From: a virus
Strand: one strand, 5' to 3'
UHGV virus genome: UHGV-1740366
Length of the DNA stretch: 15,302 nucleotides
Shown: piece after piece, positions 9,001 to 12,000 of the stretch
Numbering within the stretch: the first letter of the stretch is position 1
How the letters are laid out: each line of letters opens with the position of its first letter
Position numbers: made by a program

Positions 9001-12000
9001 GTTTTTGAGCCACTTATAGACAGCTCTTTCGCTAACTCCACAAGCCTTCGCAACTTCAGGGATGCCGACACCTTTAATCGGCTCATCAAGATTTTGCATA
9101 GGGATATCCTTTTTCGTACTTTCAGTACGCATTATGATTGAACTGAAAGTTTTTGCAAGTGCTTTAGTATCGTACTCATGGTTCAGAATGAAAAAGTGCG
9201 CAAAGAATTCGCCCAGCGGCTAGCGCAAGCCTGTAAAGAAGCTGGTCTTGATGAACATGGTAGGGGAATGGCTATAGCCCGTGCCCTTTCTCTTTCGTCC
9301 AAAGGCGTTAGCAAATGGTTTAATGCTGAGTCTTTACCGCGTCAGGAAAAAATGAATGCGCTTGCGAAATTTCTAAACGTTGATGTTGTTTGGCTTCAGC
9401 ACGGCACTTCGTTAAATGGAGCGAATGATGAAGATACTCTTTCATTTGTTGGCAAATTAAAAAAAGGGTTAGTGCGCGTGGTTGGTGAGGCAATTCTTGG
9501 TGTTGATGGTGCCATCGAGATGACCGAAGAGCGCGATGGGTGGCTCAAAATTTATAGCGATGATCCAGATGCCTTTGGCCTTCGTGTGAAAGGAGACAGC
9601 ATGTGGCCCAGAATAAAATCAGGAGAATATGTACTCATTGAGCCTAACACCAAAGTATTCCCGGGTGATGAGGTGTTTGTCAGAACCGTTGAAGGACACA
9701 ACATGATTAAGGTTCTTGGCTATGACAGAGATGGAGAATACCAATTTACAAGCATCAACCAAGACCACAGGCCAATAACGTTGCCTTATCATCAAGTAGC
9801 AAAGGTGGAGTATGTGGCTGGTATTCTGAAGCAATCTCGCCATCTGGATGACATCGAGGCAAGGGAGTGGCTGAAAAGTTTGTGACTTCAAGTACGCGAC
9901 AAGCCCCGTCCTTCAGGGCGTGGAGGATGTCAAAATAACTTTAAATAACACACCACCAACATTTAACACATTGAATTAAAAAACCTACAATATTTGATGA
10001 GAGGCGTTATGGAACCGGTCAAAATTAAACCATCTGTGGATTATATTGAAACCTATGCGGACTTCGCTAGTTTTGCTCCACTACCGGGAGCGGAAAAAAA
10101 TCTCATTTGTATACATTTTATCGCAAACAAGTCAATACCTGCGGTACTATCCCAAAATGATATACCAGATCAACCAGGTAGAGCGAATATGCAGATAGGC
10201 TCTGTAAATGAACTCAATCAGCAATGCACTGTGATAATGCCAATGGCACAACTAAAGGCTCTTCAGGAGAATATAGTTCTTCTTTTCGAACAATTAGAGG
10301 CACAAAACTCTAATGGAGCGAAGTCGTAATGCAACAACCGGAAGAAGTAGGTGATTTAACTATTACTTACAAAACATCAAGTATTGTTAAACCACTGCAA
10401 GTTTCCCTGAATAACGTTAATACTCGCGATTTCATGATGTTCATGGAAACAGCAAAAGGTAATCTGTTTTCTACGCCTATTTCCTCTTATTCACCAAAAA
10501 ACATGGTGGATGATGCGACCAATTCCCAGCTAACTGCTACAATCGTAGATAAAGGAGGGGTTGCCGATTGTAAAGGACAATCTAATGTTATCCCACCGTA
10601 CGAGGAAACTCCTATACAGGGAACCGCAATGTCCGATTTGAGCAGAAACGAAATACAGGCACTTCTGAAGGCAAATAAAGCTGAAGTGGATGCAGTGGCC
10701 TCAAAAATGCAGGCTGATATGGCCAAATGGCGTGAACTAATGGCTTCAGATATAAAGGAGATGAAGCATTTAGTTGTTACTCAGCACGAACAAATCAACA
10801 GTCGTCTGGACATACAATCGAGTAGAATTGAGAGTGCCCTTGACTCCCAATCAAAAAAGATCGATGCAGCTCTTTCTGTTCAAGAGGCAAAGTTAGAAGG
10901 TAAGCTTAGTGATGTTAAGCTTGATATAATCAAATGGGCCCTTGGCTTGCCAGCATTAGCATTTGCTGTATATAAAATCTACGGATTGCTCTCTGGAGTC
11001 TCAACCCCCTAATACACACCCGGCCTCAGTGCCGGGTTTTCTTTGCCCAACGTTCGCCCACCTAAAAACACATAATCGATTGTATTTGTTGATGTAACTC
11101 GCTAAACCATGCAGTTCTGATCCCTGCCGCATAACCTTCATCAGCCACATTTTCAAAAATAAATTTCCTTATATATCAGAATCATACTTCGTAGAGTTAA
11201 TAAATCACCAAAATTCGTACCAATAGTTCTTGATAATATCGAACTATTGGTTCATTATTATCGTCATCAGCAGGACGCATTACTCACCATGGCGGTGAAT
11301 ATACAACGATTCAAGCAAGAATCTACGGCGCTGACAAAGCGCAATAACCAAAGTGAACTTTGGGGTGAATGCAGAAGCTAACCTTCTCGGCGGAGGCGCT
11401 TTGCAATGATTACGCGACCGGAGTTAGTCGCCCGGCTGTATTCACCGCCAAAGTTCATCAGGAGGTCTATATGACACGCAGAACTCAGTTCAAAGGCAAT
11501 TCACGTTCTCGTCGTCGTGAGCGTTTAAAGGCAAAGGCATTAGCTAACGGCGTGCTGGCCCGCGAAGAAGCAATAAGTTCAGAAGTATTACACCGCCCTA
11601 CTCTAAGCAGAGCGCAGATTCAGGCTAAAGGTACTCACGAAACGCCTGAGCGCATAGAAGACGCTAAGCCAATTAAGTTCATGGCACAGGGCGTGATCTG
11701 GCAACAGAAAGAATACAGACGCAATCTGGAGCGAGCGGCCATTGTGTTCGCGAATGAGTTTGGACATAAGCAACCAGAAACTGGTGTATGTCTTCCAAAC
11801 GTAGCTCTTTACGCGGCAGGCTACCGGAAATCAAAACAACTGACGGCAAGATGACTTGTGTTGGTCGCCAGAAAATGAAATTAGGCAGCAAACCACTTAT
11901 TTGAGAGGAATTAATATGTCATCAATCCGCTTAACTACGAGAATGAAAGAGGAAATCGCTCGTAACGCTTTAATTAAGTCCGGGGTGTTCACTGAACTTG

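What the first reader, a model, noticed from the sequence alone, without database searches (positions are those of the whole stretch)
9100..9177. Compact immunity switch with palindromic operators and an apparently leaderless cI
The 78-bp divergent cro-cI region contains three inverted-repeat elements built around ACT-N3-AGT or CGTAC cores (CGTACTTTCAGTACG, AACTGAAAGTT, AGTATCGTACT). These overlap a pR-like promoter for cro and a pRM-like -10 (TAGTAT) placed so that cI transcription would begin at or next to the ATG. The operator sequences are unlike lambda, 434 or P22 operators as I recall them, suggesting a distinct immunity specificity.
Basis: partly seen in the sequence, partly recalled or inferred. 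Interest (0 to 1): 0.5.

Follow-up and report, generated by a model that had tools for sequence, protein, structure and literature searches.

The report
Known 933W-type phage immunity switch

Summary
The 78-bp cro-cI spacer (9100-9177) is real. It is the OR region of the 933W immunity group of lambdoid phages: Cro is identical to 933W Cro, cI differs only at its last residue, and the spacer differs at 3 bases, none in an operator or promoter hexamer. The same 221 bp occur unchanged in GenBank phages PhiR12_1/4.

The third, AGTATCGTACT, is not an operator.

A half-site scan finds the same 15-bp motif perfectly matched at four places in the window: OR1, OR3 and an OL pair at 11216-11254 (0.2 expected by chance). 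OR2 scores 9 of 10. This matches 933W's published five-site layout.

The leaderless-cI idea is supported. Published Cappable-seq on the 933W prophage puts the cI start exactly on the A of the ATG in all 8 conditions. It puts the cro start at window 9123 and the pL start at 11266. There is no Shine-Dalgarno sequence before the ATG.

The immunity specificity is distinct from lambda, 434 and P22, but it has been described since 1999-2004. Verdict: already known, low interest.

The parts
8872..9099 (-). cro (75 aa), identical to 933W Cro
   Evidence: ORF. HTH families. No differences from 933W Cro.
9107..9111 (-). cro Shine-Dalgarno AAGGA, 7 nt before the ATG
   Evidence: Anti-SD duplex of -5.4 kcal/mol.
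9123..9123 (-). pR transcription start (G), giving a 24-nt cro leader
   Evidence: Cappable-seq start at 1346320(+) in EDL933 in all 8 conditions, mapped base by base to the window.
9115..9129 (.). OR1, CGTACTTTCAGTACG, a perfect 15-bp palindrome centred at +2 of pR; the strongest site in 933W
   Evidence: GenBank annotations. Scores 10/10 against the half-site consensus. Affinity order from PMC3317979 and PMC5977221.
9131..9158 (-). pR: -35 TTGCAA (9158-9153), 16-bp spacer, -10 CATAAT (9136-9131)
   Evidence: Promoter scan. 933W annotation.
9139..9153 (.). OR2, TGAACTGAAAGTTTT. It lies in the pR spacer (centre -23 of pR) and at -32 of pRM
   Evidence: Annotations. Scores 9/10. It is the only site with a non-G at position 2', as stated in PMC3317979.
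9143..9170 (+). pRM: weak -35 CTGAAA (9143-9148, putative), 16-bp spacer, -10 TAGTAT (9165-9170)
   Evidence: 933W pM annotation. The -10 changes to TACTAT and then TATAAT in diverged relatives at a fixed 7 nt from the ATG.
9171..9185 (.). OR3, CGTACTCATGGTTCA, centred on the pRM start and the cI ATG
   Evidence: Annotations. Scores 10/10. Conserved as a consensus match in phages SI5 and MS2 LVA.
9178..9885 (+). cI repressor (235 aa; HTH plus S24 peptidase domain). Its first base is also the pRM start, so the mRNA is leaderless
   Evidence: Pfam. One difference from 933W cI, L235 versus S. Cappable-seq start 1346265(-) is the first base of the CDS. No SD, duplex +0.6 kcal/mol.
11018..11043 (+). 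Terminator of the pRM operon (tM-like hairpin plus T run)
   Evidence: Terminator scan. Homologous to the annotated 933W tM.
11216..11230 (.). OL distal site, CGTACCAATAGTTCT (centre -43 of pL)
   Evidence: Scores 10/10. Identical in 933W.
11240..11254 (.). OL proximal site, CGAACTATTGGTTCA (centre -19 of pL)
   Evidence: Scores 10/10. Identical in 933W.
11230..11266 (+). pL: TTGATA-17-CATTAT, start at 11266
   Evidence: Promoter scan. Cappable-seq start 1343173(-) in all 8 conditions.
8434..8733 (-). cII (99 aa). A pRE-like CII box, TTGCTGTAACTTGT, lies at 8711-8724 on the + strand
   Evidence: Pfam Phage_CII, 1e-34. Pattern match. The pRE assignment is inferred from the lambda layout.

Best explanation
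The region is the right operator/promoter (OR) of a lambdoid prophage that carries the 933W immunity module.

Operators. Three 15-bp quasi-palindromic sites of the form N-G-W-A-C-Y-N3-R-G-T-W-C-N are spaced 24 and 32 bp apart, centre to centre. They bind the CI dimer through its helix-turn-helix domain; S41, K42, K46 and E51 read positions 2-6.

Repression of pR. OR1 sits on the pR start. OR2 sits in the pR spacer. CI at these two sites shuts off cro, cII and replication.

Control of pRM. pRM (-10 TAGTAT) fires exactly at the A of the cI ATG, so the maintenance mRNA is leaderless, as in lambda. OR3 is centred on that same base, so CI at OR3 blocks its own promoter.

Published 933W behaviour. 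CI binds OR1 much more tightly than OR2 and OR3, which have similar affinity, and it binds without adjacent-site cooperativity. pRM is therefore activated and auto-repressed over a narrow concentration range, giving low repressor levels and easy induction.

Left operator and induction. Two more sites (OL) flank the -35 and spacer of pL at 11216-11254, and there is no third OL site. Induction is by RecA-stimulated self-cleavage through the S24 domain.

Shown versus inferred. Shown here: sequence identity, site positions, motif statistics, absence of an SD, and conservation in diverged relatives. Taken from published experiments on 933W: binding, affinities and transcription starts. Inferred by identity: that this particular prophage behaves the same way.
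For: Identity. The immunity region is about 98% identical to 933W, phi24B and Min27. The spacer differs at 9103, 9130 and 9137 only. Cro is identical and cI matches at 234/235 residues. The 221 bp from 9040 to 9260 are 100% identical in PhiR12 phages.

Operators. Coordinates come from three independent GenBank records. The half-site scan gives perfect matches only at OR1, OR3 and the OL pair, against 0.2 expected. The five sites reproduce every count given in the text of PMC3317979: position 6 is T in 7/10 and C in 3/10, positions 4-5 are invariably AC, position 2 is G except in one OR2 half-site, and the centre is A/T. Residue numbering S41/K42/K46/E51 fits an ORF starting at ATG 9178.

Transcription starts. 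Cappable-seq places the starts of cI, cro and pL at window 9178, 9123 and 11266 in all 8 conditions. No SD precedes the cI ATG.

Comparative. In Salmonella phages SI5 and MS2 LVA the operators keep the consensus and the -10-to-ATG distance is fixed.

Affinities. The affinity ratios, the lack of cooperativity and the absence of OL3 come from PMC5977221 and PMC3317979.
Against: No experiment was done on this exact prophage. The three spacer substitutions flank the pR -10 (9130, 9137) and lie in the cro leader (9103). They could change promoter strength slightly.

One paper (PMC5977221) states that the 933W cI mRNA contains a Shine-Dalgarno sequence, citing Tyler 2004, which I could not read. This conflicts with the sequence and with the Cappable-seq data.

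With the mapped start, OR2 is centred at -32 of pRM and covers the putative -35. That position is not the lambda-like one for activation, so the activation step is not mechanistically explained.
Confidence: 0.93

Rival explanations
1. One reading: the third operator is the palindrome AGTA-TCG-TACT (9166-9176), lying wholly upstream of the ATG.
For: It is a perfect palindrome with 4-bp arms. Its centre (9171) is 25 bp from the OR2 centre, a lambda-like spacing.
Against: Its polarity is the reverse of OR1 and OR2 (AGTA..TACT versus TACT..AGTA). A 15-mer centred there has T, not G, at position 2.

A palindrome with 4-bp arms is expected by chance in 27% of such 78-bp spacers.

It is broken in SI5 (ACTATCGAACT) and in MS2 LVA (ATAATTGAACT), whereas 9171-9185 keeps the consensus in both.

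Three GenBank annotations and the site statistics in PMC3317979 fit 9171-9185.
Confidence: 0.03
2. cI is not leaderless. The maintenance transcript starts upstream or downstream of 9178 and uses a Shine-Dalgarno sequence, as PMC5977221 states.
For: The sentence in PMC5977221 citing Tyler 2004. A lambda-like geometry with OR2 at -42 would predict a start near 9188, from TTGCAA-18-CATGGT. An in-frame ATG at 9268 has a GGGGA just upstream.
Against: Cappable-seq finds one cI gene-associated start, exactly at the ATG, in 8 of 8 conditions. No start in the 134625x range appears in the tables.

No SD lies within 20 nt of ATG 9178.

The GGGGA before ATG 9268 is only 1 nt from that codon, and starting there would delete helix 1 of the DNA-binding domain.

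Published residue numbering uses ATG 9178. The phi24B record annotates the start 1 nt before the ATG.
Confidence: 0.03
3. The palindromes are chance features of an AT-rich spacer and have no binding function.
For: Each short 4-bp-arm palindrome is individually common (27%).
Against: The 6-bp-arm OR1 has P = 0.019 and the three together P = 0.0035. The same 15-bp motif recurs as a pair at pL, against 0.2 expected in 15 kb. Published footprints, EMSA and mutagenesis exist on identical sequences.
Confidence: 0.005

Closest known systems
Bacteriophage 933W OR/OL immunity region (also phi24B, Min27, Stx2 phage I, phage 86, PhiR12)
   Same: cI matches at 234/235 residues and Cro is identical. The OR1, OR2, OR3 and both OL sequences are identical, as are the pR, pRM and pL hexamers. 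There are two rather than three OL sites, and the tM terminator and nutL region are the same.
   Different: Three single-base changes in the spacer (9103, 9130, 9137), one between the OL sites, and the base at the pL start.

The genes between cI and tM are different: two ORFs at 9994-11012 replace L0084-L0083-stk-L0081.

The cII C-terminus, the N gene and the replication genes come from other lambdoid lineages.
Bacteriophage lambda OR (OR1-OR2-OR3, pR/pRM, leaderless cI)
   Same: Divergent cI and cro. Three operators shared by two back-to-back promoters. CI has an HTH and an S24 self-cleaving domain. The pRM transcript starts at the A of the cI AUG. cII/pRE, N/nut and OL/pL have the same layout (leaderless lambda cI as cited in PMC8630535 and PMC3342100).
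   Different: The operators are 15 bp with a different sequence, against 17-bp TATCACCGCCAGTGGTA-type sites in lambda.

The spacer is 78 bp against 100 bp. The two starts are 55 bp apart against 83 bp.

The outer operators sit on the transcription starts: OR1 at +2 of pR and OR3 at +1 of pRM. In lambda they are at about -17 and -19. OR2 is at -32 of pRM against -42 in lambda.

Published for 933W: no OR1-OR2 cooperativity and no OL3.
Phage 434 repressor/operator
   Same: The Koudelka laboratory used it as the closest structurally characterised template for modelling the 933W repressor N-terminal domain, with a similar HTH recognition logic.
   Different: phmmer finds no relative in the PDB for this cI or Cro. 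The operator sequence and length differ. The 434 cI mRNA is said to have a leader with an SD.
PaaR2/YdaS switch of cryptic prophage CP-933P
   Same: Another E. coli O157 prophage switch with a short (97 bp) divergent spacer and a repressor shown by 5' RACE and N-terminal sequencing to be translated from a leaderless mRNA.
   Different: The proteins and operators are unrelated, and it controls a toxin-antitoxin operon.

Membership tests
933W immunity group (imm933W) of lambdoid phages | Repressor with the 933W DNA-binding domain, including recognition residues S41, K42, K46 and E51 | tested here: met
   cI matches 933W cI at 234/235 residues; the only difference is the last residue. All four residues are present.
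933W immunity group (imm933W) of lambdoid phages | Cro of 933W type | tested here: met
   75/75 residues identical.
933W immunity group (imm933W) of lambdoid phages | Three 15-bp OR sites with the 933W sequences | tested here: met
   All three 15-mers are identical to 933W in the alignment, at the positions annotated in AF125520, HM208303 and GQ499363.
933W immunity group (imm933W) of lambdoid phages | Only two OL sites | tested here: met
   Exactly two consensus sites at pL, 24 bp apart. No third site scoring 9/10 or better lies between 10148 and 13360. The layout is the same in 933W.
933W immunity group (imm933W) of lambdoid phages | Functional cross-immunity with 933W; CI binding order OR1 >> OR2 ~ OR3, non-cooperative | not testable with these tools
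   Inferred from identical proteins and sites. The data exist only for 933W itself.
Lambdoid CI/Cro bistable switch | Divergent cI (HTH plus S24 peptidase) and cro separated by a spacer holding shared operators and back-to-back promoters | tested here: met
   Pfam HTH_3 and Peptidase_S24 in cI; HTH families in Cro. pR found by scan. Starts on both strands.
Lambdoid CI/Cro bistable switch | cII downstream of cro, and N with pL/OL on the other side of cI | tested here: met
   Phage_CII, 1e-34. N-like antiterminator at 11369-11854. pL and OL.
Leaderless repressor mRNAs (lambda cI type) | Transcription start coincides with the A of the start codon, with no SD | tested here: met
   The Cappable-seq start in 933W is the first base of the CDS, and the sequence from -40 to +16 is identical. 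Anti-SD duplex is +0.6 kcal/mol. Not measured on this prophage itself.
Leaderless repressor mRNAs (lambda cI type) | Protein N-terminus corresponds to that AUG | not testable with these tools
   Only indirect support: the published residue numbering agrees with ATG 9178.

The most novel reading that the evidence does not exclude
With the pRM start mapped at 9178, OR2 is centred at -32 and covers the whole putative -35 hexamer, yet pRM is active in lysogens and is reported to be CI-stimulated. So 933W-type CI may activate pRM by a route unlike lambda's sigma-region-4 contact from -42. Candidates are binding on the opposite DNA face, as lambda CII does at pRE, or simply evicting RNA polymerase from pR, whose start is only 55 bp away. 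I could not read the primary 933W papers, so this may already have been addressed.
Probability: 0.15. Interest if true: 0.4.

Novelty: already known. Interest (0 to 1): 0.1.

Why it matters
The 933W switch controls Shiga toxin 2 production in enterohaemorrhagic E. coli, so it is medically important. This immunity region, or part of it, occurs in 734 of 5426 complete E. coli genomes.

This check adds little. It corrects the third operator. It cross-references genome-wide Cappable-seq data that settle the leaderless question, against a contrary sentence in one paper. It also notes that the operator-promoter geometry is not lambda-like.

Tried and rejected
Papers not held. I tried to read Tyler 2004 (PMC524894), Koudelka 2004 (PMC524892), Bullwinkle 2011 (PMC3133280) and Plunkett 1999 (PMC93574); none is in the library. 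The footprints themselves are therefore cited only through later open-access papers and GenBank annotations.

Alternative pRM. I considered a lambda-like pRM, TTGCAA (9153-9158) with an 18-bp spacer and CATGGT, starting near 9188, which would put OR2 at -42. I rejected it because no Cappable-seq start exists in the 134625x range, while 1346265 is present in all conditions.

Alternative cI starts. I considered GTG 9196 and ATG 9268. I rejected them on SD spacing, loss of helix 1, the published residue numbering and the mapped start.

Stx2 phage I operators. The 17-bp 'putative operators' and the intragenic 'maintenance promoter' annotated in AP004402 are offset from the motif and are not supported by the half-site scan or the mapped starts.

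Other negatives. NC_002655 is not in the collection. PADLOC and Pfam gave nothing convincing for the two cargo ORFs. phmmer against the PDB found no relative of cI or Cro.

Full report
**Observation**

The window carries cro on the minus strand (8872-9099) and a 235-aa cI on the plus strand (9178-9885). They are separated by exactly 78 bp, 9100-9177. cI has an HTH and a Peptidase_S24 domain. Cro matches several HTH families. The next gene rightward is a Phage_CII protein.

In shuffles of the spacer:
- a palindrome with 6-bp arms and a 3-nt spacer occurs in 1.9% of trials;
- one with 4-bp arms occurs in 27%;
- three or more together occur in 0.35%.

The ensemble and the first element are therefore non-random. 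Each short element on its own is weak evidence.

**Identity**

Megablast places 8400-9900 at about 98% identity in Stx phages 933W, phi24B, Min27, TL-2011a and many others: 302 phage records, 98 of them covering at least 80% of the query.

- The cro-cI spacer differs from 933W, phi24B and Stx2 phage I at three bases only: 9103, 9130 and 9137.
- Cro is identical to 933W Cro. cI differs only at its last residue.
- The 221 bp from 9040 to 9260 are 100% identical in phages PhiR12_1 and PhiR12_4.
- At least part of this immunity region (query 8850-11400) is present in 734 of 5426 complete E. coli genomes.

**Operators**

Three independent GenBank records annotate the sites: AF125520 (933W), HM208303 (phi24B) and GQ499363 (phage 27). 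In window coordinates these are OR1 9115-9129, OR2 9139-9153 (the phi24B record places OR2 one base to the right) and OR3 9171-9185.

PMC3317979 describes the site as 15 bp and rotationally symmetric about a central A/T pair. It gives these counts:
- positions 2-5 are conserved;
- positions 4-5 are invariably A-C;
- position 2 is G except in one OR2 half-site;
- position 6 is T in 7 of 10 half-sites and C in the other 3.

I scanned the whole window for N-G-W-A-C-Y-N3-R-G-T-W-C-N. Perfect matches occur at only four places: 9115-9129, 9171-9185, 11216-11230 and 11240-11254. Shuffles give 0.2 expected. OR2 scores 9/10. These five sites reproduce every count in the paper. The last two lie in a stretch nearly identical to the 933W OL/pL region.

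It shows which elements are real.
- The second is the inner 11 bp of OR2.
- The third (AGTA-TCG-TACT) is not a site. It is the pRM -10 (TAGTAT) run together with the left half-site (CGTACT) of the true OR3, CGTACTCATGGTTCA. That site is imperfectly symmetric, which is why it was missed.

**Comparative test**

Salmonella phages SI5 (88.6% identical over 221 bp) and MS2 LVA (75.9%) carry diverged versions.

| Element | Window / 933W | SI5 | MS2 LVA |
|---|---|---|---|
| OR3 | CGTACTCATGGTTCA | CGAACTCATGGTTCA | TGAACTCATGGTACA |
| pRM -10 | TAGTAT | TACTAT | TATAAT |

The OR3 changes fall only at the tolerated positions 1 and 3. The -10 always lies 7 nt before the ATG. OR1 in SI5 changes symmetrically at positions 1 and 1' only. 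Both phages also have OL pairs.

**Promoters and transcript starts**

The consensus scan finds pR as TTGCAA-16-CATAAT (9158..9131, minus strand) and pL as TTGATA-17-CATTAT (11230-11258). pRM is too weak for the scan. 933W annotates it as a 28-bp stretch ending in TAGTAT at 9165-9170.

Decisive data come from a genome-wide Cappable-seq study of E. coli O157:H7 EDL933, which carries 933W (PMC10469882, Table S5). In NZ_CP008957 the cI CDS is 1345558-1346265 on the minus strand and cro starts at 1346344. All three starts below are present in all eight growth conditions.

| Promoter | EDL933 start | Window position | Note |
|---|---|---|---|
| pRM (cI) | 1346265 (-) | 9178 | A of the ATG |
| pR (cro) | 1346320 (+) | 9123 (-) | 24-nt leader with AAGGA SD |
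| pL | 1343173 (-) | 11266 | |

I checked the mapping base by base. The window is identical to EDL933 from -40 to +16 of pRM.

The 20 nt before the cI ATG have no anti-SD complementarity: +0.6 kcal/mol, against -5.4 for cro. The residue numbers used in the Koudelka model (S41, K42, K46, E51) fit an ORF starting at this ATG. The leaderless-cI reading is therefore supported. It repeats what is known for lambda and what the phi24B record already annotates.

One sentence in PMC5977221 says the 933W cI mRNA has an SD, citing Tyler 2004. That conflicts with both the sequence and the Cappable-seq data. I could not read the cited paper.

A pRE-like CII box (TTGCTGTAACTTGT, 8711-8724) lies in the 5' end of cII, in the lambda arrangement. 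By analogy, a long-leader cI transcript is expected during establishment of lysogeny. Such a transcript would not contradict leaderless maintenance expression.

**How it works**

Shown for identical sequences in 933W:
- CI dimers bind the five sites with OR1 about 14-fold tighter than OR2 and about 26-fold tighter than OR3.
- There is no adjacent-site cooperativity and no OL3.
- CI represses pR and pL, stimulates pRM at intermediate concentration and represses it at about 4-fold higher concentration.
- cI mRNA levels are therefore low and induction is easy.

Read from the sequence and the mapped starts:
- OR1 is centred at +2 of pR.
- OR2 is at -23 of pR and -32 of pRM.
- OR3 is at +1 of pRM.
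- The OL sites are at -19 and -43 of pL.

Inferred: this prophage behaves identically. Cro uses the same sites. CI self-cleaves through the S24 domain, with a Leu-Gly at 107-108. My recollection is that Koudelka 2004 identified Leu-Gly as the cleavage site, but I could not check this.

**Comparison with lambda**

The logic is the same. The geometry is tighter and different. The spacer is 78 bp against 100 bp, and the starts are 55 bp apart against 83 bp. The outer operators lie on the transcription starts rather than between the -10 and -35. OR2 is at -32 rather than -42 of pRM (for the lambda coordinates; the lambda starts are from established knowledge). How a dimer centred at -32, covering the putative -35 CTGAAA, stimulates pRM is the one thing I could not explain from what I could read. 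It is recorded as the novel case.

**Verdict**

The feature is the already described 933W OR. 'Compact' and 'leaderless' are correct. The distinct immunity specificity is correct but long known. The third operator is mis-assigned. Novelty: already known. Interest: low.

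Noticed in passing
window 9994-11012: Between cI and the tM-like terminator the window carries two ORFs. One is 111 aa with a TTG start and no family match. The other is 227 aa: phrog_14825 (unknown function), with a weak CCDC90-like Pfam match below the cutoff. They replace 933W's L0084-L0083-stk-L0081. They sit in the pRM operon, so they are probably expressed in lysogens, in the position of lambda rexAB. PADLOC gives nothing significant. This cargo variant occurs in 37 complete E. coli genomes.
   Followed up: partly
window 9139-9153 relative to the start at 9178: OR2 is centred at -32 of the mapped pRM start and fully overlaps the putative -35 hexamer, yet CI is reported to activate pRM from OR2. 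This is not the lambda geometry (-42). The mechanism is unexplained by anything I could read.
   Followed up: partly
literature (PMC5977221 versus PMC10469882 Table S5): A published statement that the 933W cI mRNA contains a Shine-Dalgarno sequence conflicts with the Cappable-seq start at the A of the ATG and with the absence of any SD in the sequence.
   Followed up: partly
window 8434-8510 (3' part of cII): There is a mosaic joint inside cII. The first ~76 residues match 933W CII apart from two substitutions (residues 27-28). The C-terminus (…TNKKRPVCKTERSEQIQMEF) is lambda-like rather than 933W-like. This fits the 933W match starting at window ~8476.
   Followed up: partly
window 4792-7366 (minus strand): A 626-aa primase/helicase ORF is followed directly by a 203-aa HNH endonuclease ORF. 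In phi24B the corresponding P gene is annotated as a single 968-aa protein. This may be a homing-endonuclease insertion or a split gene.
   Followed up: no
window 11350-11854: The nutL region is conserved with 933W up to about 11365, then the sequence diverges. The N-like antiterminator here (161 aa as listed; phrog_271) is not the 933W N. The best match is to the Stx2a phages in the LC616031-46 series.
   Followed up: no
L007 (Salmonella phage SI5) 5201-5215: A 9/10 operator-like 15-mer (CGTACTAAAAGGACA) lies 33 bp upstream of the SI5 OL pair. It could be a third OL site, which 933W lacks.
   Followed up: no
EDL933 NZ_CP008957 1347028 (-), 22 nt beyond the cII stop: Cappable-seq records an antisense start just downstream of cII in 2 of 8 conditions. 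This is the position expected for an oop-like antisense RNA. The equivalent position in this window lies in the part that is not 933W-like.
   Followed up: no
window 9118-9126 versus 9142-9150: The inner 9 bp of OR1 (ACTTTCAGT) and of OR2 (ACTGAAAGT) are exact reverse complements. So the asymmetric central triplet is flipped between the two sites.
   Followed up: no
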